Below are positions 2,794 through 24,039 of a stretch of DNA of 47,589 bases, piece by piece. This DNA comes from a virus (taxonomy: Duplodnaviria; Heunggongvirae; Uroviricota; Caudoviricetes): IMG/VR virus record IMGVR_UViG_2706794673_000013. One strand, given 5' to 3'. Within the stretch, counting starts at the first letter, position 1. Each line of letters begins with the position of its first letter. The notes under the pieces are model-generated. The model worked only from the letters and a program-made list of their open reading frames with translations, was not told the DNA's origin and did no database searches. The position numbers and the translations under genes are program-made.

Positions 2794-5386
2794 TTGCATA
2801 TTCCTTAGCCCAGCGGGGCAGTGATAACGTCTTAATAGCTGGCCATTCATCGGTATTGAGGCAGTCAGCCAGGGTTCGCAGATTGCGGTGATATTCCAGC
2901 TGACCTGCCAGTTTTGCTTCTTCGCCCATCATGAAAATTTCAACCGGATAACGTCCGCATTCAATAGTTGTGCTGGCAACCAGAAAAACGAAAGTTGGCT
3001 GCACTCCAAACTGTGCTTCATAACCGTCACTGTAGAATGCATCCTGAACGTGATAGCGGTAGTCGTAATAAGCGGTTTTGAATCGTTGAATATCCGCCGT
3101 AGTTTTCACGTCCATGATCCAGTGAAATTCAGGGATAATTTTGTCCGGACGGCACCGACACAAAATTGCTGTTTCAGGATCTTCCCAGTAAATTGATGAT
3201 TCAGCGTGTCCGGCGCTTTCAACAAGCCATTGCCCCAGCGGCAAAGCCATAACGCTCTGATACATGAGTTCAATTTTCCGGCCTTCTTCGGCAGTGATAA
3301 CCGTTTTTCCTGTGCTTGCGCATTCCCTCAGAAACGCTTTCTCTTCTTCTTTTCCGGAGTTTGTCCGGCGGTTAAATTCAGGTGCTACGATAAAGCGGTT
3401 ACTGAATTCTTCCGGCTCAAGTACCCGGCAGTGGAAAGCGGTTCCTAAATCGAGCGTTTTTGTCTTTGTGGTGTCCACGGGGGCATTTTTACGCCACAAA
3501 TACAGTGCCGGAGTATCAGCAATGTCATCGAGCTGAGACTTACTGACACCGGGACCCGCGTGGTAATTCTCATTCGAAATTCCGTAATAAATACCTGGCT
3601 CTATGTCTTCTACGATTACGGGATCTGCGACTTCGCCAGTTTCATCACTGCAATCGCGATGCGGATCGCTGCCAGCATTCTCATTGTGCGGATGTTCAGC
3701 GCCTTCCATTTCCTCCGGATCATTTTCCTTAGCTTCAACCTGACTCTCTTCATCGAATGTTTCCTGGTATGTTGCGTCGCCCATCACCGCACCACAGTCA
3801 GGGCAGTTATCCCCGCCAGTCTGGCCGCAGGCATTGCAGGCTATTTCCGGTTCCTGTTGCACTACTGGCTCAGGTTGATTCATATCCGGGCTGGTTTTTT
3901 CCGTTTCTGGCTGGTTCTGGTACACACAATCGCGAGTCTGGATCCCCTTTACCCATTTCGGATCGTTCGGGTCGCTAATTCCGTCAACAAATTCACCACG
4001 TGATGCAGCAAGCAATTTATCGGCATCGACAGGATTTTTTGATGGAATGTTTTTCCGGGCTTCATGGAGTTCTGCCCGCAGTTCCTGATATTTCGCATCA
4101 ACAGAATTTACCTGTGACTGAGCATCCAGCGGCTGCGTGTCCTGATGATGTTCAGTTGCGTCCGGTTCCATTGTTTCAGCCTCTCCCTGTTCAACTGCCG
4201 TTGTTCCAGATGGTTGCGGTTTTTCTTCATCATCCTGTTTTCCTTCTTCTGTTACTCGCTGCGGCATCGGGGCAGAGGAGCGACCGCAGGCAATATCCAC
4301 GATTTCCGGATCAGGGTTGGCATGATCGGTTTCAGTCAGTACTTTGTTCAGATATTCAGTGACGTGCGCGGGGATGACCTCGATCCCAATTGGTGCTTCT
4401 TTTACGGACGCAACCACGATGGCGCGGGAATAATCCAGCCCGCCAGGCATGGTGATGAATTTGTCGCGGAAAACAGAAAAGGGCGGTTTATTTTCAGCGA
4501 TAATTTCCTCAATGCGTTTAGCGTGTGCCGGATGAAGGTTATAGATGTCCAGATCCATTGAACGGGCCAGTACGCCAGTGGCTACGTCCCGCGCCAGTGA
4601 CGTCAGATCGTGTACGAAACCTTCGCCGCGATCGGTGAGGTTTCCGCCGCCAGCATTAGCACCGGAAGCCGTGCGAGTGATGTGTGAAACACGATTACCC
4701 TTCATCCACTCTTTTGTCAGCAGTCCTCGATCGGTGTAGTCAGCGTTCAGGTATGCTTCGAAAAAAGCAGTTATCAGTCCCAGGTTTGAATTACCAGGAT
4801 TAGGGAAAACTTTGTCAGTGTCACGAACCAGTTTGTGGAGTTCGCGAATTTCCAGCGGGTCGAGCAGGCTGGTTTTGTGGGAAACAGCCAGGGCAGTAAC
4901 AGCCGGTAGTTCTTCAGCCCGAGCAATGTGTAATGCCTGGAGTCCGTCGCGTGAAACGTGCGTTACCGGTTTTTCGCTGCCGTGTTGAGCAAGCCAACGA
5001 ATGGGCAGTTCCTGGCCAGAAATTGGGAGTAGCATATTCTCCTCAATCTCAGTCATGTCTTCGCCGTTGACGTTGGTATTGCCTTGATAGTGAGCGTTGT
5101 CTGGTGCTGCTCCCGGTTTTAGTTCCCATGTCATGGAGTCTTTGCTGAGTTGATAGCGTTCACTCCAGGTAAAATCGATCTCACCTTCAGCGGGCAGGTC
5201 ATTAACGACAGGAAAATTCGTGGCAACAGCTTTAAAATAGCTGCTCAGTTTTTTACCTGACTTAACGATCAGGTAGTCCAGAGTGGCACAGGTCGATTCA
5301 AAATCGTTGCTTGCCCACAGGACGACGTCAGGTTCACCGGATGATTTTTTCGCTTTCCGTAACAGGAAGAGTGGTTTTGTGCTCAT
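2786..5386 (-). CDS. recE: Exodeoxyribonuclease VIII (RecE)
   Basis: 866-aa ORF immediately upstream of recT on same strand; acidic/low-complexity middle region and C-terminal nuclease domain as in RecE. Confidence 0.9.
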
Positions 5387-5837: not shown

Positions 5838-6008
5838 TTAAAGTTCATGTGCCATCTGGTCTTTTTCGGCACAAGCTTCACTGCAATATTTTCTCGGTTC
5901 GTCTTTTGATAAAATCCCGTGCATGAAGTGAAGCATTCTTTCAATAGCTTTGCTTTCTTCAACGTCTTTTTTGCAAAGGTGGTAAGCACATTTTATTTTC
6001 TTAGTCAT
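5838..6008 (-). CDS. ydaE: Small Cys-rich protein YdaE
   Basis: 56-aa ORF below the 60-aa track cut-off, found by manual translation ([56 protein letters not shown]); start ATG overlaps kilR stop (TGATG). Confidence 0.8.
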   Translation of the reverse strand: MTKKIKCAYHLCKKDVEESKAIERMLHFMHGILSKDEPRKYCSEACAEKDQMAHEL

Positions 6009-6229
6009 CACCATGACTCCGCCTTTACAGGTAAACCATCACGACCGAGGAAGACTTTAATCATGCGGTCAGTAATGCATGTTTTTGTGGTCAGGTTACG
6101 AATATATAGTTTTCGCTTTTTAATATTGTTTGCCGAGGCAATATATGTCCGGCCTTCATGAAGAACATAATCGCCAGGAGTCACACACTGACGTGGTATT
6201 TCATCAGTTCCGAAGTGATGTGCAATCAT
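6008..6229 (-). CDS. kilR: KilR cell-division (FtsZ) inhibitor
   Basis: 73-aa product from Met5 of the ORF ([29 protein letters not shown]...); recognised KilR; a start at 6241 is also possible. Confidence 0.85.
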
Positions 6230-6670
6230 AATTATCTCCATTTTTACAAATGAACTTTGTTGATGCGGTGCCTGGTGCCTCCAGGTGACTGCAACCAGTT
6301 AACAATTACAGTCGGCTTTCCCACCCAAACCAATAAGGACTAACATGACTTTTAACTGTGCCACGTGCGCTTAGCCGCATTCACCGCATCACAAAATTCA
6401 CTTTAAAAAGGGCGGACATCAGCCGAACTTCAAGAAAAAAACTGATGCCGCCAGGACTACACACAGCAATGTCGTTATTTACAACCGGAGGCGCACTCCC
6501 ACCATTTAAATTTAACAGACAAGACCGACTCTTTATGGATATCGGAAATGCGCCTTCGTGTTGTGCCCGGTTTTATTTCACCACCTCCGGGCTTCGGTGG
6601 TCTCGGCTATACCCCTACAGCGAGAGCTTGTGTTAACATTTCAATACCCTTACAGTTGAGAGTTATTGAT

Positions 6671-7159
6671 ATGTTGGATGTATTTACTCCATTGTTGAAA
6701 CTTTTTGCTAACGAGCCACTCGAAATACTTATGTATACGATTATCATTTTTGGTCTCACTCTCTGGCTGATACCGAAAGAGTTTACTGTCGCATTCAATG
6801 CTTATACTGAAATACCTTGGCTCTTTCAGATTATCGTTTTTGCCTTTTCTTTCGTGGTCGCCATTTCCTTCTCAAGATTGCGAGCACATATTCAAAAGCA
6901 TTATTCATTACTACCAGAGCAACGAGTATTGCTTCGTTTATCTGAGAAAGAAATCGCTGTATTTAAAGATTTCCTTAAAACAGGAAATCTTATTATCACT
7001 TCTCCTTGCCGTAACCCGGTTATGAAAAAATTAGAACGGAAGGGCATCATTCAACATCAGAGTGATAGCGCAAACTGTTCTTATTATCTCGTCACCGAAA
7101 AATACTCCCATTTTATGAAGTTATTCTGGAACAGCAGGAGTAGACGTTTTAATCGTTAG
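6671..7159 (+). CDS. sieB: Superinfection exclusion protein SieB
   Basis: 162-aa product from internal Met (MLDVFTPLLKLFANEPLEILMYTIIIFGLTLWLIP...), hydrophobic N-terminal segment; recognised SieB. Confidence 0.85.
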   Translation: MLDVFTPLLKLFANEPLEILMYTIIIFGLTLWLIPKEFTVAFNAYTEIPWLFQIIVFAFSFVVAISFSRLRAHIQKHYSLLPEQRVLLRLSEKEIAVFKDFLKTGNLIITSPCRNPVMKKLERKGIIQHQSDSANCSYYLVTEKYSHFMKLFWNSRSRRFNR

Positions 7160-7311
7160 CTTACTGTGTGCTTCTCCAACCATCGGCGCGCACCAGTTTC
7201 GGTTTTAAATGTTTTGCTTTTGGTATACGTCATGGCAGTGAACGTTCCATCCTGGTTGGGGAACACGCCGCACACCAGGGATTCGTTGTTGCCGAGGTCG
7301 ATTTTTTGCAT
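7156..7311 (-). CDS. ydaG: Small protein YdaG
   Basis: 51-aa ORF below track cut-off, found by manual reverse translation (MQKIDLGNNESLVCGVFPNQDGTFTAMTYTKSKTFKTETGARRWLEKHTVS). Confidence 0.75.
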   Translation of the reverse strand: MQKIDLGNNESLVCGVFPNQDGTFTAMTYTKSKTFKTETGARRWLEKHTVS

Positions 7312-7321
7312 TTTGCGAATC

Positions 7322-7456
7322 TCACATCTTGTTGCTGTGTATAGCGACTTCTGCCTGCCAGAGATCCCAGTCGTTGCTGCGTAAAGCCTGCACAGCCTGG
7401 TTGTAAGTGATACCGCAACAATCCATCAAATACTGAACTACTTCGTAATGCACCAT
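7322..7456 (-). CDS. ydaF: Small protein YdaF
   Basis: 44-aa product (MVHYEVVQYLMDCCGITYNQAVQALRSNDWDLWQAEVAIHSNKM) with strong SD AAGGGGAG upstream; first gene of the leftward early operon. Confidence 0.75.
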   Translation of the reverse strand: MVHYEVVQYLMDCCGITYNQAVQALRSNDWDLWQAEVAIHSNKM

Positions 7457-7599
7457 CTTATCTCTCCCCTTAACGCCGGGTGGCGGAACTGAAACCTGCT
7501 GCACTGCAAAATCTGAACCCTGCCGTCATGTTCATACGCCTCGGGCTGGCTACTTAACCCCTGACCACTGCCTGGTAACTCGAAGTATTGCCCTGCGTT

Positions 7600-7690
7600 C
7601 TGTGGGGCGGGGTGGGTTGGTAGGTATATAATGTACTTTGTGTTCATTGATGTAAAGTACTATAAGTACATTTTGTGTGTAAAAAAATGA
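7600..7690 (-). promoter_or_regulatory. Leftward early promoter/operator region (OL-like) with ATGTACT-type repeats
   Basis: Between repressor stop and ydaF start; minus strand shows TTTACA ... ATTATA promoter-like hexamers; motif AATGTACTT and its reverse complement occur (7629-7638, 7664-7675). Confidence 0.4.
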
Positions 7691-7746
7691 GATGGGATAA
7701 AGTGAAGCACAAACCCGGAGGGGGACGCTACCGGATTTATGCTGGT

Positions 7747-8184
7747 TTAAGAGGCTTTTTGTTTTTTCTTTCGTGCTAGCTCTTCGTAAATTGCATTGTA
7801 CTTCTGTTTTTTCTCCTCAAGAGTTTTTAAAAGTTCATCTGTCTCACTGTCAGGGAGCTCGTCCAGAAGGTCAATGATGATTTTTTGTCTTGGATTTAAC
7901 TCCTGATAGAAACGTACCTGTCCACTTTCTTCTGTATCCTCTCCCAAAAGATAGGTTGGTGTTGTTCCAATGAGTGTTGCTAATTCCCTTAATTTCTCTC
8001 GGCGAGGAATTGTTTCGCCATTAAACCATTTGCTAACCGCTTTTGGTGTTAATTTCATTCGACGGGCAATTTCTGCCTGCCTTCCATGTTGTTCATAACC
8101 AGCGTTTTCACAGGCTAGCGCAAGCCTACTGGCGAACTCTTTACGCGCTTTATCTTCATGAACCATAAGTTCAATGATATTCAC
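7747..8184 (-). CDS. XRE-family HTH prophage repressor (RacR-position)
   Basis: 145-aa ORF with an HTH-like segment (...QAEIARRMKLTPKAVSKWFNGETIPRREKL...) and a charged C-terminal tail; divergently transcribed from a Cro-like gene; start could be 8184 or 8163. Confidence 0.7.
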   Translation of the reverse strand: MNIIELMVHEDKARKEFASRLALACENAGYEQHGRQAEIARRMKLTPKAVSKWFNGETIPRREKLRELATLIGTTPTYLLGEDTEESGQVRFYQELNPRQKIIIDLLDELPDSETDELLKTLEEKKQKYNAIYEELARKKKQKAS

Positions 8185-8245
8185 TCTTGAATGTACTGTC
8201 AGTTCTGTTATAGCATGTACTCAAAGTTCACATTGTGAGGGTGAT
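8164..8245. promoter_or_regulatory. Divergent immunity promoter/operator region (OR-like)
   Basis: 82-nt intergenic region between divergent repressor and cro-like genes; TTGAAT (-35-like) and TATAGC (-10-like) on plus strand; ATGTACT motif at about 8191-8197 and 8213-8219. Confidence 0.45.
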
Positions 8246-8500
8246 ATGAACCAGAAAACACTTGAAGATGTAATCAAAACTGTTCGCGTTTCTGTTGTGG
8301 CCGACGTTTGTGGTGTCAGCCAAAGAGCAATCTACAAATGGATGGATAACGGAAAATTGCCTCGCACAGAATATACCGGCGAAACAAATTACGCTGAAAA
8401 AATCGCTCATGCATCAAACGGATTATTTTCTGCTGATGTAATTTTAACTATTGGCAGAAATAAAACTACTACGAAAAAGCTGATGGGAGTTGATTCATGA
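8246..8500 (+). CDS. Cro/YdaS-like small HTH regulator
   Basis: 84-aa product from ATG 8246 preceded by GAGGG; HTH-like segment (VCGVSQRAIYKWMDNGKLP); stop overlaps ydaT start. Confidence 0.6.
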   Translation: MNQKTLEDVIKTVRVSVVADVCGVSQRAIYKWMDNGKLPRTEYTGETNYAEKIAHASNGLFSADVILTIGRNKTTTKKLMGVDS

Positions 8501-8919
8501 AAATCAAGCATGAGCACATCGAGTCAGTGTTGTTAGCCCTGGCAGCCGAAAAAGGGCAGGCATGGGTAGCCAATGCCATTACTGAAGAATATCTGCGCCA
8601 GGGGGGCGGCGAATTGCCCCTGGTACCAGGCAAGGACTGGAATAATCAGCAGAATATCTATCACCGTTGGTTGAAAGGTGAAACGAAAACGCAAAGAGAA
8701 AAAATTCAGAAGCTGATCCCAGCAATTCTGGCAATCCTTCCGCGCGAGCTGCGTCACCGACTCTGCATCTTCGATACCCTGGAACGCCGTGCATTACTGG
8801 CGGCGCAGGAAGCGTTAAGTACGGCAATTGATGCGCATGATGATGCAGTCCAAGCCGTTTACCGGAAAGCGCATTTCAGCGGCGGCGGGTCTTCCGACGA
8901 TTCTGTCATTGTTCATTAA
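8497..8919 (+). CDS. ydaT: YdaT (toxic partner of the racR-ydaS-ydaT module)
   Basis: 140-aa ORF (MKIKHEHIESVLLALAAEKGQAWVANAITEEYLRQGGGELP...); recognised Rac YdaT. Confidence 0.85.
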   Translation: MKIKHEHIESVLLALAAEKGQAWVANAITEEYLRQGGGELPLVPGKDWNNQQNIYHRWLKGETKTQREKIQKLIPAILAILPRELRHRLCIFDTLERRALLAAQEALSTAIDAHDDAVQAVYRKAHFSGGGSSDDSVIVH

Positions 8920-8931
8920 GCAAAAGTTTCC

Positions 8932-9789
8932 ATGCTGTTTGTGCTTATTCTAAGCCACCGGGCAGCATCATACGGGGCAATTATGGCCGCATTACCATAC
9001 ATGCAACTGTACATAGCTGATTACCTGGCTGACACCATGCATTTGTCAGCAGAGGAGCATGGTGCGTATTTGTTGCTGATGTTCAATTACTGGCAAACAG
9101 GAAAGCCAATACCTAAAAACAGGCTGGCAAAAATTGCCCGTCTGACTAACGAGCGATGGGCTGATGTTGAACCATCCTTGCAGGAGTTTTTTTGCGATAA
9201 CGGCGAGGAATGGGTGCATCTTCGGATTGAGGAAGATCTGGCATCAGTCAGGGAAAAATTAACCAAAAAATCAGCCGCAGGAAAAGCATCTGTTCAGGCC
9301 AGAAGAAGCAGAAAGGAAGCAGATGTTCAAACAAAACAAGAGAGAAATTTAACAGGTGTTCAAACAGATGTTGAAGTGGTGTTTGAACATGATGTCAACA
9401 CAAAGGCAACTAATAAAGATACAGATAAAGATCTAAAAACAGATCCCCCCCTAAATCCCCCCCGGGGGAATCGAGGTGTCAAAAAGTTTGACCCTCTGGA
9501 TATTGCTTTGCCGAACTGGATTTCTGTCTCGCTTTGGCGTGAGTGGGTTGAATTTCGCCAGGCATTGCGAAAACCGATTCGAACGGAGCAGGGCGCTAAC
9601 GGGGCGATACGGGAGCTGGAAAAATTCCGCCAGCAGGGTTTTTCACCTGAGCAGGTGATTCGACACAGCATCGCCAATGAATACCAGGGCTTGTTCGCGC
9701 CGAAAGGTGTTCGACCTGAGACGTTACTCCGACAGGTTAACACCGTCTCGTTACCGGATAGTGCGATCCCGCCAGGCTTCAGGGGGTAA
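8932..9789 (+). CDS. ydaU: YdaU (DUF1376, replication-associated)
   Basis: 285-aa ORF (MLFVLILSHRAASYGAIMAALPYMQLYIADYLADTMHLSAEEHGAYLLLMFNYWQ...); recognised Rac YdaU. Confidence 0.85.
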   Translation: MLFVLILSHRAASYGAIMAALPYMQLYIADYLADTMHLSAEEHGAYLLLMFNYWQTGKPIPKNRLAKIARLTNERWADVEPSLQEFFCDNGEEWVHLRIEEDLASVREKLTKKSAAGKASVQARRSRKEADVQTKQERNLTGVQTDVEVVFEHDVNTKATNKDTDKDLKTDPPLNPPRGNRGVKKFDPLDIALPNWISVSLWREWVEFRQALRKPIRTEQGANGAIRELEKFRQQGFSPEQVIRHSIANEYQGLFAPKGVRPETLLRQVNTVSLPDSAIPPGFRG

Positions 9790-23114: not shown

Positions 23115-24039
23115 TGATTTTTGCGCCTTTATTCTGACTCACGGGCGACCGGACAAAGTTCTGACTTACCGGACGTTGCGTCGTGCTGGCTATACCGGGA
23201 AAATTTTTATCGTTGTTGATGATGAAGATAAGACACGGCATCAGTACATGGCTGAATTTGGTGAACAGGTGCTGGTATTTTCCAAAGCCGATATTGCTAG
23301 TCGTTTTGACGAAGCCGATAATTTTAGTGACCGCCGCTCAATTTTTTACGCCCGTAATGCCTGTTTCGACCAGGCAAAACTGGTCGGGTGTAAATACTTC
23401 ATTCAGCTCGATGATGATTATCACGAGTTCCAGTTTCGGGTGGATCGCAACTATGACCAGGCCTATTTCCCGATAAGGAAACTGGATGAGATCCTTTCTG
23501 AAATGCTTGCGTACTACGAATCAATACCTGCTCTTTCCATCGCTATGTCGCAGGGCGGGGATTTTCTTGGTGACAATGGCGGCCATGCTTCGTGGGTGAA
23601 ACGCAAGGCAATGAACAGCTTTATCTGTTCGGTTGATCGACCGTTCTCATTCATGGGGCGCATTAACGAGGATGTGAATACGTACACGAATCTCGGTCGC
23701 TGTGGTGAATTGTTTATGACGATCGGTGCTGTCCAGTTAGGGCAGAAACAGACGCAGAAAAACAGCGGCGGAATGACCGAGCTGTATCTGGATTCCGGAA
23801 CCTACGTTAAAAGTTTTTACTCCGTCATGTATGCGCCGTCGTGCGTAAAAATCTCACTTATGGGTGCCAGTCATAAACGCATTCACCATCAGGTCACCTG
23901 GAACAACGCTGCAGTAAAAATCCTTCACGAAAAATACAGGAAGAAGACACCCTGCATATCAATGGGGGTGACAAATGATTCCGTATTCGAAAGTCGAGTC
24001 TCTGGCAGCGTGCCGGATGACTGCACAACAAATCGCTGA
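23107..24039 (+). CDS. Hypothetical protein with DxD motifs (possible nucleotide-sugar transferase-like fold)
   Basis: 310-aa product from ATG 23107 (SD GGGGAGGAGG inside end of upstream gene); motifs FIVVDDEDK and FIQLDDDYHEF; family not recognised. Confidence 0.45.
   Translation: MRDDFCAFILTHGRPDKVLTYRTLRRAGYTGKIFIVVDDEDKTRHQYMAEFGEQVLVFSKADIASRFDEADNFSDRRSIFYARNACFDQAKLVGCKYFIQLDDDYHEFQFRVDRNYDQAYFPIRKLDEILSEMLAYYESIPALSIAMSQGGDFLGDNGGHASWVKRKAMNSFICSVDRPFSFMGRINEDVNTYTNLGRCGELFMTIGAVQLGQKQTQKNSGGMTELYLDSGTYVKSFYSVMYAPSCVKISLMGASHKRIHHQVTWNNAAVKILHEKYRKKTPCISMGVTNDSVFESRVSGSVPDDCTTNR

What the first reader, a model, noticed from the sequence alone, without database searches (positions are those of the whole stretch)
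7600..8500. Immunity switch with repeated ATGTACT-type operator motifs flanking the repressor gene
An XRE-type HTH repressor gene (minus strand) is flanked on both sides by promoter-like regions carrying the core ATGTACT: AATGTACTT and its reverse complement in the leftward (ydaF/ydaG/kilR) promoter region, and GAATGTACTG / GCATGTACTC in the 82-nt divergent region upstream of the Cro-like gene and ydaT. This is the expected OL/OR arrangement. In Rac the repressor is known to be needed to silence the toxic ydaS-ydaT pair, so this locus behaves like a prophage-embedded addiction/immunity module.
Basis: partly seen in the sequence, partly recalled or inferred. Interest (0 to 1): 0.5.

Follow-up and report, generated by a model that had tools for sequence, protein, structure and literature searches.

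The report
HK022-type immunity switch in Rac prophage
The repeated ATGTACT motifs are real repressor-binding sites of an ordinary prophage on/off switch, but the switch is a phage HK022-type cassette swapped into a Rac prophage, not the RacR/YdaS module of E. coli K-12.

Summary
ATGTACT occurs five times in the window, and four copies lie in 7631-8221. There are five such sites. Two lie left of the repressor gene (OL1 7632-7646, OL2 7656-7670). Three lie in or next to the 79-nt divergent region (OR3 8159-8173 on the repressor ATG, OR2 8192-8206, OR1 8216-8230). Start-to-start spacings are 24, 33 and 24 bp.

GenBank annotates the same sequences, spacing and promoter overlaps as potential repressor sites oL and oR in phage HK022. 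The repressor's DNA-binding domain is 47.5% identical to HK022 CI, with the putative recognition-helix segment matching except V/I and T/S. The Cro-like protein is 62% identical to HK022 Cro.

The OR triplet recurs at exactly 24/33-bp spacing in 22 of 27 loci from other species.

The repressor is not RacR and the Cro-like gene is not ydaS. Only ydaT (99%) and the Rac backbone are shared. An 868-bp cassette (7623-8490) replaces the K-12 module.

The repressor lacks HK022 CI's self-cleavage domain and carries a DicA-like helical tail instead. How the prophage is induced is therefore open.

This is an ordinary immunity switch and a new member of a known kind. The cassette sits in 1047 of 5426 complete E. 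coli genomes.

The parts
7623..8490 (.). Immunity cassette (868 bp) that replaces the racR-ydaS segment of K-12 Rac. It runs from the PL -10/OL1 edge to the left arm of the YdaT-box.
   Evidence: Similarity to K-12 Rac (98.8% and 99.3%) stops at 7622 and resumes at 8491. The cassette is found at >=80% coverage in 1047 of 5426 complete E. coli genomes.
7632..7646 (.). OL1 operator, TGTACTTTGTGTTCA
   Evidence: Exact match to TGWAC-N5-GTWCA. It corresponds to the HK022 oL site at 2201-2215, TGTACTTAAAGTTCA. Common polymorphisms fall in the 5-bp spacer; the half-sites vary only in single haplotypes.
7656..7670 (.). OL2 operator, AGTACTATAAGTACA, 24 bp from OL1
   Evidence: One mismatch to the pattern. 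It corresponds to the HK022 oL site at 2225-2239, AGTACCAATAGTACA.
7628..7656 (-). Candidate leftward promoter (PL analogue): -35 TTTACA at 7656-7651 and -10 CATTAT at 7633-7628. OL1 and OL2 overlap it.
   Evidence: The promoter scan scores it 9 of 12. It occupies the same position as the pL -35 and -10 annotated for HK022. Inferred, not shown.
7747..8166 (-). Repressor gene, 139 aa. Residues 1-74 form an HK022 CI-type helix-turn-helix domain, and residues about 88-139 form a DicA-like helical tail. There is no S24 peptidase domain.
   Evidence: Pfam HTH_3. 47.5% identity to the N-terminal part of HK022 CI. The putative recognition-helix segment TPKA[VI]SKWFNGE[TS] matches HK022 CI except at those two positions. 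DicA: BLASTP E 5e-15 over residues 30-137 and NCBIfam PRK09706 E 2e-15. AlphaFold2 model with mean pLDDT 82.6.
8159..8173 (.). OR3 operator, TGAACCATAAGTTCA, lying on the repressor start codon (ATG at 8166-8164, minus strand)
   Evidence: Exact pattern match. Identical in sequence to HK022 oR sites 3000-3014 and 3057-3071, and 3000-3014 likewise overlaps the cI start. A site on the ATG is present in most of the other-species loci.
8174..8202 (-). Candidate repressor maintenance promoter (PRM analogue): -35 CTGACA at 8202-8197, inside OR2, and -10 TATCAT at 8179-8174. The -10 ends 7 nt before the ATG, which implies a leaderless mRNA.
   Evidence: The promoter scan scores it 10 of 12. TATnaT at this fixed position, and CTGAnA inside OR2, are conserved across 22 distinct OR regions. 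Inferred; the transcription start is not mapped.
8192..8206 (.). OR2 operator, TGTACTGTCAGTTCT, 33 bp from OR3
   Evidence: One mismatch to the pattern. It corresponds to HK022 oR 3033-3047, TGTACTATCAGTTCC. It does not vary in any of 55 E. coli haplotypes.
8187..8214 (+). Candidate rightward promoter (PR analogue): -35 TTGAAT at 8187-8192 and -10 TATAGC at 8209-8214, preceded by TGT
   Evidence: Same positions relative to OR2 as the pR -35 and -10 annotated for HK022. Both hexamers fall in conserved blocks. Inferred.
8216..8230 (.). OR1 operator, TGTACTCAAAGTTCA, 24 bp from OR2
   Evidence: Exact pattern match. It corresponds to HK022 oR 3057-3071.
8246..8500 (+). Cro-like gene, 84 aa
   Evidence: 62% identity to HK022 Cro, E 2e-34. 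56-61% identity to the Cro-position proteins of the Salmonella and Klebsiella relatives. It is not YdaS.
8490..8507 (.). YdaT-box, TTGATT-CATGAA-AATCAA, with the ydaT ATG in its spacer
   Evidence: Read directly from the sequence. It matches the footprinted boxes ATGATT-n6-AATCAA of K-12 Rac and TTGATT-N6-AATCAA of CP-933P (PMC11879457, PMC9986795).
8497..8919 (+). ydaT, the CII-like regulator, 140 aa
   Evidence: 139 of 140 residues identical to K-12 YdaT. Pfam YdaT_toxin. phrog_163, CII-like activator.
7156..7504 (-). First genes downstream of OL/PL on the minus strand: a ydaG-like ORF at 7322-7504 and ydaF at 7156-7311. kilR (6008-6241) and ydaE lie further downstream.
   Evidence: ORF list, Pfam DUF1391 and RefSeq annotation of near-identical genomes.

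Best explanation
This is the immunity (lysis/lysogeny) switch of a full-length Rac-type prophage integrated at ttcA. The prophage carries an HK022-family immunity cassette at 7623-8490.

**Proposed mechanism**
- Dimers of the 139-aa repressor bind 15-bp dyads of the form TGWAC-N5-GTWCA.
- OL1 and OL2 are 24 bp apart and cover the -10 and -35 of the leftward promoter. That promoter faces ydaG, ydaF, kilR and ydaE, with recE and recT annotated further on in a near-identical genome.
- OR1 and OR2 are also 24 bp apart and cover the rightward promoter that drives the Cro-like gene, ydaT and the replication genes.
- OR3 lies on the repressor's own start codon and probably limits repressor synthesis.
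- The repressor mRNA is probably leaderless.
- The Cro-like protein is expected to bind the same sites in the lytic state.
- YdaT bound at its box (8490-8507) is expected to drive establishment transcription back toward the repressor gene.

**What is shown and what is inferred**
- Shown here: the sites, their spacing and conservation, and the homology of both proteins and all five sites to HK022.
- Inferred: actual binding, cooperativity between sites, the promoter assignments and the leaderless start.

**Induction is open.** The repressor has a DicA-like helical tail in place of the S24 self-cleavage domain. Induction probably does not occur by RecA-stimulated cleavage and may need an antirepressor or another signal.
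For: **The sites**
- Five sites fit the dyad with zero or one mismatch, against 4.4 expected in the whole window.
- The 24-bp site pairs never appeared in 1000 simulations.

**Match to HK022**
- GenBank X16093 annotates potential repressor sites at oL 2201-2215 and 2225-2239, and at oR 3000-3014 (on the cI ATG), 3033-3047 and 3057-3071. The spacings are the same 24 and 33+24 bp, and pL and pR overlap them.
- The sequences are nearly the same as in the window. BLASTN gives 82% identity over the 61-bp OL region.
- The repressor's N-terminal domain is 47.5% identical to HK022 CI. The putative recognition-helix segment differs only V/I and T/S.
- The Cro-like protein is 62% identical to HK022 Cro.

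**Conservation in other species**
- Of 27 loci from other species, 22 have the OR triplet at exactly 24/33 bp from a fixed position relative to the repressor start. These include Enterobacter, Klebsiella, Kluyvera, Brenneria, Pantoea, Providencia, Pseudomonas and Haemophilus. Two more loci have 24/32 or 24/34.
- An ungapped alignment of 22 distinct OR regions conserves the half-sites and the promoter hexamers, but not the spacers.

**Conservation within E. coli**
- Among 55 E. coli haplotypes, 5 of 45 non-coding half-site positions vary, against 68 of 171 other non-coding positions (Fisher p = 1.3e-4). OR2 does not vary at all.

**Operators travel with the repressor type**
- The left operator region changes together with the repressor. 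K-12 Rac has RacR-type dyads on both sides of racR and no HK022-type dyads; the window has the reverse.

**Published support**
- HK022 CI binds adjacent operators cooperatively and loops OL to OR (PMC8053113, citing Carlson & Little 1993).
- The YdaT-box matches the footprinted K-12 and CP-933P boxes.
Against: - No binding or expression data exist for this cassette. I found no paper on these proteins in the held library.
- The repressor lacks the C-terminal domain through which HK022 CI oligomerises. Cooperative binding here rests only on the retained site spacing.
- OR2 covers the candidate PRM -35 hexamer, so the sign of autoregulation cannot be read from the sequence.
- The PR -10 (TATAGC) is a poor consensus match, and the promoter scan did not call it.
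- The E. coli haplotypes are related to one another, so the Fisher test is only indicative.
Confidence: 0.9

Rival explanations
1. One reading: the locus is a RacR-type toxin-repressor ('addiction') module. Its main role would be to silence a toxic ydaS-ydaT pair, so that losing the repressor kills the cell through those two proteins.
For: - The ydaT gene is 99% identical to K-12 ydaT.
- Silencing or deleting racR in K-12 is lethal, and YdaS/YdaT overexpression is toxic (PMC5700373, PMC5700377).
- kilR also lies downstream of OL on the minus strand.
Against: - The repressor is not RacR, and the gene in the ydaS position is an HK022 Cro homologue.
- YdaT is described as a CII-like DNA-binding regulator (PMC11879457, PMC9986795, PMC8630535; phrog_163).
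- The near-identical genome region annotates integrase, excisionase, replication, lysis and terminase genes. Derepression would therefore start a lytic programme in any case.
- Jobling's critique applies here (PMC5917428).
Confidence: 0.1
2. The sites are relics. The prophage is cryptic and the switch no longer works, so the motifs are inherited sequence without present function.
For: - Rac in K-12 is defective.
- One near-identical genome has an IS421 element inserted between ydaG and the repressor gene.
Against: - All three regulatory ORFs are intact.
- The cassette is kept in 1047 genomes, at 95-100% identity in all but about 19.
- Variation avoids the half-sites.
- The same cassette occurs in deposited phage genomes: Tritos with a 100% identical repressor, and the vB_EcoS-6xx records at 99.3%.
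Confidence: 0.05
3. The dyads are bound mainly by another protein, such as the Cro-like protein alone, YdaT or a host factor, and not by the 139-aa repressor.
For: Cro proteins of lambdoid phages share operators with their repressors, so the Cro-like protein is expected to bind the same sites.
Against: - YdaT recognises a different dyad, TTGATT-N6-AATCAA.
- The dyads occur wherever a repressor with the PKA[VI]SKWF segment was found, in loci from other species retrieved by that protein pattern.
- In the HK022 GenBank record they are annotated as potential repressor binding sites.
Confidence: 0.03
4. The motif cluster is a chance occurrence.
For: The window-wide count of the 7-mer is unremarkable: 5 observed against 3.7 expected, and 31 of 100 shuffles had at least 5.
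Against: - No simulation out of 1000 had four copies within 600 bp, and none had a 24-bp pair of 15-mers.
- The sites are conserved in position across genera.
Confidence: 0.01

Closest known systems
Immunity region of coliphage HK022 (cI, cro, OL, OR; GenBank X16093; Oberto et al. 1989 and Carlson & Little 1993, the latter as cited in PMC8053113)
   Same: - Same operator dyad, TGWAC-N5-GTWCA.
- Two OL sites 24 bp apart over pL.
- Three OR sites at 33 + 24 bp, with OR3 on the repressor ATG.
- Homologous repressor DNA-binding domain (47.5% identity; the putative recognition-helix segment differs only V/I and T/S) and homologous Cro (62%).
   Different: - HK022 CI is annotated at 208 aa (the CDS spans 236 codons) and carries a C-terminal domain homologous to the S24 peptidase domains of its relatives. 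The window's repressor is 139 aa with a DicA-like helical tail.
- No equivalent of the extra HK022 site beyond cro was found. L003 3324-3338 fits the pattern, but the window has no hit between 8231 and 17992.
- The flanking genes are Rac-type (ydaG/ydaF/kilR on one side, ydaT/ydaU/ydaV on the other) rather than nun and cII.
RacR-YdaS-YdaT module of E. coli K-12 Rac (PMC9638921, PMC11879457, PMC5700373)
   Same: - Same prophage backbone and chromosomal site (ttcA, intR, recET, kilR, sieB, ydaF, ydaU, ydaV).
- ydaT is 99% identical.
- A YdaT-box lies on the ydaT ATG.
- Three operators in the divergent region, with one on the repressor ATG.
   Different: - The repressor and the Cro-position gene are unrelated beyond the helix-turn-helix.
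- The operator is (T/A)TAGGC-n3-GCCTA(T/A) in K-12, and that motif is absent from the window.
- Experimental results on RacR binding, essentiality and YdaS toxicity cannot be carried over directly.
DicA, repressor of the Qin prophage, and the Gifsy small repressors GfoR/GtgR (PMC3121763)
   Same: - Size of 135-139 aa.
- N-terminal helix-turn-helix followed by a C-terminal helical tail with the xLLxLFxxLPxSE motif, and no self-cleavage domain.
- DicA: 29% identity over residues 30-137, E 5e-15.
- GtgR: E 3e-10.
   Different: - Different DNA-binding specificity.
- The score against the NCBIfam DicA model is 56.8 bits, below its cut-off of 101.
- Gifsy prophages carry a LexA-controlled dinI-antirepressor unit. 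None is detectable in this window.
PaaR2-YdaS-YdaT switch of cryptic prophage CP-933P (PMC8630535)
   Same: - Small repressor without a peptidase motif.
- Leaderless repressor mRNA, shown for PaaR2 and inferred here.
- OR and OL operator sets.
- YdaT acting as a CII analogue at a TTGATT-N6-AATCAA box.
- Weak similarity in the tail (E 2e-5).
   Different: - Different operators (GTTTAGTAA-type repeats).
- A paaA2-parE2 toxin-antitoxin pair lies downstream of paaR2. The window has no such pair, although the Salmonella relatives carry higB/higA at that position.
Phage lambda CI/Cro/CII switch
   Same: - Divergent PRM and PR promoters with a three-part OR, plus OL over PL.
- 24-bp centre spacing of the OR1-OR2 type (from my own knowledge of lambda).
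- Leaderless cI mRNA (PMC8630535).
- A CII-type establishment activator.
   Different: - Different operator sequence.
- Two OL sites rather than three.
- No S24 domain in the repressor.
- YdaT is not a sequence homologue of CII in the usual sense.

Membership tests
HK022-type lambdoid immunity region | Divergent repressor and cro genes separated by a short region that holds three operators | tested here: met
   The repressor ATG is at 8166 (-) and the cro-like ATG at 8246 (+). The region between them is 79 nt and holds OR2 and OR1, with OR3 straddling the repressor ATG.
HK022-type lambdoid immunity region | Operator dyad TGWAC-N5-GTWCA with HK022 spacing (OL 24 bp; OR 33 + 24 bp) | tested here: met
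   Window sites start at 7632, 7656, 8159, 8192 and 8216. HK022 sites start at 2201, 2225, 3000, 3033 and 3057.
HK022-type lambdoid immunity region | Repressor DNA-binding domain homologous to HK022 CI, with the same putative recognition helix | tested here: met
   47.5% identity over residues 4-102. The segment TPKA[VI]SKWFNGE[TS] matches except at those two positions.
HK022-type lambdoid immunity region | Cro homologous to HK022 Cro | tested here: met
   62% identity, E 2e-34.
HK022-type lambdoid immunity region | Repressor carries a C-terminal S24 (LexA-like) self-cleavage and oligomerisation domain | tested here: not met
   The protein is 139 aa and Pfam finds only helix-turn-helix families. 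The alignment ends in a short helical tail where HK022 CI and its long relatives continue. Those relatives carry precomputed PF00717 hits.
HK022-type lambdoid immunity region | Repressor binds the operators and confers immunity | not testable with these tools
   This needs gel-shift or footprinting assays and superinfection tests.
RacR/YdaS/YdaT module of K-12 Rac | Repressor is an orthologue of RacR | tested here: not met
   The only similarity is 36% identity over 33 residues.
RacR/YdaS/YdaT module of K-12 Rac | The divergent gene is ydaS | tested here: not met
   BLASTP E 0.028 over 18 residues. The gene is an HK022 Cro homologue.
RacR/YdaS/YdaT module of K-12 Rac | RacR operators (T/A)TAGGC-n3-GCCTA(T/A) are present | tested here: not met
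   The window has no hit with up to one mismatch. K-12 has five with up to two mismatches.
RacR/YdaS/YdaT module of K-12 Rac | ydaT and the YdaT-box are present, on a Rac backbone at ttcA | tested here: met
   YdaT is 139/140 identical. The box lies at 8490-8507. The flanks are 98.8-99.3% identical to K-12 Rac. A near-identical genome shows the ttcA-intR context.
Small DicA/Gifsy-type prophage repressors | Protein of about 135-140 aa with an N-terminal helix-turn-helix, a helical C-terminal tail and no cleavage motif | tested here: met
   The AlphaFold2 model shows a five-helix domain at 1-74, a disordered stretch at 77-87, and helices at 92-103 and 106-138. About 40 cluster representatives with different N-terminal domains share the tail.
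Small DicA/Gifsy-type prophage repressors | Sequence membership in the DicA family | tested here: inconclusive
   BLASTP E 5e-15 over residues 30-137. The NCBIfam PRK09706 score is 56.8 bits, below its cut-off of 101.
Small DicA/Gifsy-type prophage repressors | A LexA-controlled antirepressor is encoded in the same prophage (Gifsy model) | tested here: not met
   There is no CTGT-N8-ACAG in the window. The best CTG-N10-CAG site has 8 mismatches to the LexA consensus. tblastn finds no GftA hit up to E 10 and no DinI hit better than E 1.4. A different or trans-acting antirepressor is not excluded.
Type II toxin-antitoxin / addiction module | A toxin neutralised by a cognate antitoxin protein, giving post-segregational killing | not testable with these tools
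   No sequence evidence supports it. YdaT matches a CII-like activator family, and the literature disputes the toxin label (PMC5917428, PMC8630535).

The most novel reading that the evidence does not exclude
The repressor is a natural chimera. It joins an HK022-specificity DNA-binding domain to the helical tail of the DicA/Gifsy class of small repressors, yet the locus keeps the exact HK022 operator geometry (24/33/24 bp).

If this reading is right, three things follow:
- The operator layout is set by the DNA-binding domain and the promoters, not by the oligomerisation domain.
- This common Rac variant, present in 19% of complete E. coli genomes, cannot respond to the SOS signal on its own. 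It would be induced only by an antirepressor supplied in trans by another prophage, or by some other signal.
- Its lysogens should show cross-immunity, or other regulatory cross-talk, with phages of HK022 immunity.
Probability: 0.35. Interest if true: 0.5.

Novelty: new member of a known kind. Interest (0 to 1): 0.3.

Why it matters
**It corrects an easy mis-annotation.**
- About a fifth of complete E. coli genomes carry this cassette, labelled only 'helix-turn-helix' proteins.
- A Rac prophage with ydaT is readily assumed to be RacR-controlled. In fact it is heteroimmune to K-12 Rac and uses the HK022 operator code.
- Apparent 'loss' of racR and ydaS in surveys of Rac (PMC5700373) may partly be replacement by this cassette.

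**It offers a natural experiment on switch design.** The same DNA-binding domain and the same operator layout occur with either a self-cleaving S24 domain or a DicA-like tail.

**It gives testable predictions.**
- Cross-immunity with HK022-type phages.
- Induction that does not depend on RecA-stimulated cleavage of the repressor.

None of this changes how prophage switches are understood.

Tried and rejected
- **LexA boxes.** There is no CTGT-N8-ACAG in the window. The best CTG-N10-CAG site has 8 mismatches, against 3 for the Gifsy-2 box.
- **Gifsy-type antirepressor.** tblastn of Gifsy-2 GftA and DinI against the window found no GftA hit up to E 10 and no DinI hit better than E 1.4.
- **Solved structure for the C-terminal tail.** The sequence search gave only designed helical proteins at E >= 0.095. 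Foldseek on the AlphaFold2 model matched only XRE helix-turn-helix domains, with no hit at E <= 0.001. The full protein's only PDB sequence hit was P22 C2.
- **Pfam on the tail.** There was only a weak MgtE_N hit, which I took as chance.
- **Equivalent of the extra HK022 site beyond cro, or a third OL site.** I found neither. The two-mismatch hits at 7514 and 8395 were set aside as probable chance; I ran no conservation check on them specifically.
- **Alternative gene starts.** The GTG at 8184 for the repressor (145 aa) and the ATG at 8174 for the Cro-like gene (108 aa) were rejected in favour of 8166 and 8246. Those two agree with RefSeq and with the conserved geometry. The 69-aa ORF 7438-7647, which starts inside OL1, has no family match.
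- **Literature.** Searches for the RefSeq protein accessions, for phage Tritos, and for HK022 together with the Rac prophage gave nothing relevant. Jobling 2016 (PMC4957749) is not held in the library.
- **Rfam.** No RNA family matched inside the cassette.
Full report
**1. The observation**

ATGTACT occurs at 7631 (+), 7665 (-), 8191 (+) and 8215 (+), with one more copy at 23243. The total of five against 3.7 expected is unremarkable. The clustering is not: no simulated sequence out of 1000 had four copies within 600 bp.

The minus-strand gene 7747-8166 encodes a 139-aa protein that matches Pfam HTH_3. The divergent region between its ATG (8166) and the ATG of the rightward gene (8246) is 79 nt, not 82.

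**2. What the motif is**

The repeat search extended the motif to about 15 nt. Each copy is one arm of a dyad, TGWAC-N5-GTWCA. There are five such sites:

| Site | Coordinates | Sequence |
|---|---|---|
| OL1 | 7632-7646 | TGTACTTTGTGTTCA |
| OL2 | 7656-7670 | AGTACTATAAGTACA |
| OR3 | 8159-8173 | TGAACCATAAGTTCA |
| OR2 | 8192-8206 | TGTACTGTCAGTTCT |
| OR1 | 8216-8230 | TGTACTCAAAGTTCA |

- With up to one mismatch the pattern hits 13 times in the window against 4.4 expected, and no shuffle out of 100 reached 13.
- All three exact hits lie in this region.
- Start-to-start spacings are 24 bp (OL1-OL2), 33 bp (OR3-OR2) and 24 bp (OR2-OR1). No simulation out of 1000 produced a 24-bp pair.
- OR3 lies on the repressor start codon.

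**3. Identity of the cassette**

The prophage is Rac. A near-identical genome shows ttcA, intR, xisR, ralR, recT, recE, racC, ydaE, kilR, sieB and ydaF on one side. On the other side it shows ydaT, ydaU and ydaV, followed by lysis and terminase genes.

The regulators differ from those of K-12:
- The repressor matches RacR only over 33 residues of the helix-turn-helix.
- The rightward gene is not ydaS.
- ydaT is 139/140 identical to K-12 ydaT.
- Similarity to K-12 Rac stops at 7622 and resumes at 8491. An 868-bp block has therefore been exchanged.

The block is of the HK022 type:
- The repressor's N-terminal domain is 47.5% identical to HK022 CI. The putative recognition-helix segment TPKA[VI]SKWFNGE[TS] matches except at those two positions.
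- The Cro-like protein is 62% identical to HK022 Cro.
- GenBank X16093 annotates potential repressor binding sites in HK022 at oL 2201-2215 and 2225-2239. It annotates oR sites at 3000-3014 (on the cI ATG), 3033-3047 and 3057-3071, with pL and pR overlapping them.
- The spacings and nearly the same sequences recur in the window. HK022 OR3 and OR1 are identical to the window's OR3.
- HK022 CI is reported to bind adjacent operators cooperatively and to loop OL to OR (PMC8053113, citing Carlson & Little 1993).

**4. Conservation**

*Across species.* Loci encoding relatives of the repressor were fetched by protein pattern, not by the DNA motif.
- Of 27 loci, 22 have three dyads at exactly 24/33 bp from a fixed offset relative to the gene start.
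- Two more have 24/32 or 24/34, and three differ.
- The hosts include Enterobacter, Klebsiella, Kluyvera, Brenneria, Pantoea, Providencia, Pseudomonas and Haemophilus.

*Ungapped alignment of 22 distinct OR regions.* The conserved columns are:
- the half-sites;
- the two PR hexamers;
- a TATnaT hexamer ending 7 nt before the repressor ATG;
- CTGAnA inside OR2.

The 5-bp spacers and linkers vary.

*Within E. coli.* In 55 haplotypes, 5 of 45 non-coding half-site positions vary, against 68 of 171 other non-coding positions (Fisher p = 1.3e-4). OR2 does not vary. The haplotypes are related, so this test is only indicative.

*Co-variation with repressor type.* The left operator pair changes together with the repressor. 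K-12 Rac has RacR-type dyads both in the racR-ydaS region and left of racR. The window has none of these, and the K-12 locus has no HK022-type dyads.

**5. Promoters (inferred)**

- **PL analogue, minus strand.** -35 TTTACA at 7656-7651 and -10 CATTAT at 7633-7628. The scan found it and it sits at the position of the annotated HK022 pL.
- **PR analogue, plus strand.** -35 TTGAAT at 8187-8192 and -10 TATAGC at 8209-8214, preceded by TGT. It sits at the position of the annotated HK022 pR. The scan did not call it.
- **PRM analogue, minus strand.** -35 CTGACA at 8202-8197 and -10 TATCAT at 8179-8174, scoring 10 of 12.
  - Seven nucleotides separate the -10 from the ATG, and I see no Shine-Dalgarno-like sequence in the bases just upstream. 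The repressor mRNA is therefore probably leaderless.
  - Leaderless repressor mRNAs are known for lambda cI and were shown for paaR2 (PMC8630535).
  - OR3 would then block this promoter at high repressor levels.
  - OR2 overlaps the candidate -35, so I cannot tell from the sequence whether occupied OR2 activates or represses.

**6. YdaT**

TTGATT-CATGAA-AATCAA at 8490-8507 carries the ydaT ATG in its spacer. It matches the footprinted YdaT-boxes of K-12 Rac (ATGATT-n6-AATCAA) and CP-933P (PMC9986795). In K-12, YdaT bound at the box stimulates a reverse promoter toward racR, as lambda CII does at PRE (PMC11879457). The right junction of the cassette lies in the left arm of this box.

**7. The repressor's tail**

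*Length of relatives.* In one search every species-level relative was 200-252 aa, apart from a Shigella flexneri copy identical to the window's protein. Long relatives carry precomputed S24 peptidase hits. The short form (136-139 aa) appeared only in Escherichia/Shigella and Salmonella sequences.

*Model.* The AlphaFold2 model (mean pLDDT 82.6) shows a five-helix domain at 1-74, a disordered stretch at 77-87, and helices at 92-103 and 106-138.

*Distribution of the tail.* Searched alone, the tail found 40 cluster representatives. The 19 inspected carry varied N-terminal regions, several with different helix-turn-helix sequences.

*Similarity to known small repressors*

| Protein | Evidence |
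|---|---|
| DicA of Qin | 29% identity over residues 30-137, E 5e-15 |
| NCBIfam DicA model | E 2e-15, but 56.8 bits, below the cut-off of 101 |
| Gifsy-2 GtgR | E 3e-10 |
| PaaR2 | E 2e-5 |

*Implications for induction.*
- Gifsy repressors are not cleaved. LexA-controlled antirepressors inactivate them, and that paper lists DicA and RacR in the same group (PMC3121763).
- PaaR2 lacks the peptidase motif and does not respond to mitomycin C (PMC8630535).
- The window has no LexA box, no dinI and no Gifsy-type antirepressor.
- The induction route is therefore unknown.

**8. Verdict on the interpretation**

The OL/OR reading is right and can now be stated precisely. The appeal to RacR biology is not justified for the repressor or the Cro-like gene. 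The 'addiction' label adds nothing beyond the general fact that a prophage repressor is essential in its own lysogen (PMC5917428).

**9. Novelty**

The switch is a member of a kind described for HK022. I found no paper on this cassette or its proteins in the held library. The cassette is common, at >=80% coverage in 1047 of 5426 complete E. coli genomes, and is annotated only in generic terms. It also occurs in deposited phage genomes.

The modest new point is the natural domain exchange in the repressor, with the operator geometry left unchanged.

Noticed in passing
window 6410-6465 (-) and 6222-6408 (-): Rfam matches below the gathering scores: DicF-like sRNA (39.1 bits against 48, E 3.4e-6) and STnc100-like sRNA (35.5 against 47). 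Both lie on the minus strand between kilR and sieB. Phage Tritos, which carries the same cassette, has an annotated DicF and dicB on that side.
   Followed up: no
L001 (K-12 Rac) 1980-1994 and 2005-2019: Two RacR-type dyads (ATAGGTAATGCCTAA and ATAGGCTATGCCTAA), 25 bp apart, lie about 100 bp beyond the racR stop, between racR and ydaG. They look like an OL for RacR. The RacR passages I read describe only the three operators in the racR-ydaS region.
   Followed up: partly
L006 4553-5220; L007 and L008 4588-5255: In the Salmonella relatives of the short repressor (62-65% identity), a higB/higA-like toxin-antitoxin pair sits directly downstream of the repressor gene. The position mirrors paaR2-paaA2-parE2 in CP-933P (PMC8630535). 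No OL dyads occur within 700 bp of the stop in L006 or L007.
   Followed up: partly
L011 20528-21640 (E. coli SW071611): An IS421 transposase gene lies between the ydaG-like gene and the repressor gene, in a genome otherwise 99.9% identical over 7150-8950. The insertion may separate the OL/PL region from the genes to its left.
   Followed up: no
window 8490/8491 and 7622/7623: Both cassette junctions fall on regulatory elements: the right one in the left arm of the YdaT-box, and the left one just outside the PL -10 and OL1. These conserved elements may serve as recombination points for exchanging immunity cassettes.
   Followed up: partly
L022 (1026-bp contig labelled Streptomyces sp. NPDC002677): This contig holds a near-HK022-type cI start and an OR triplet typical of enterobacterial phages. 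It is probably contamination in that assembly.
   Followed up: no
L004 3245-3670 (phage Tritos): In Tritos the gene after the Cro-like gene is annotated 'Rha family transcriptional regulator'. My reading of the DNA is that it begins MKIKHEHI, like YdaT, and then diverges. The YdaT-box sequence is kept at the junction.
   Followed up: no
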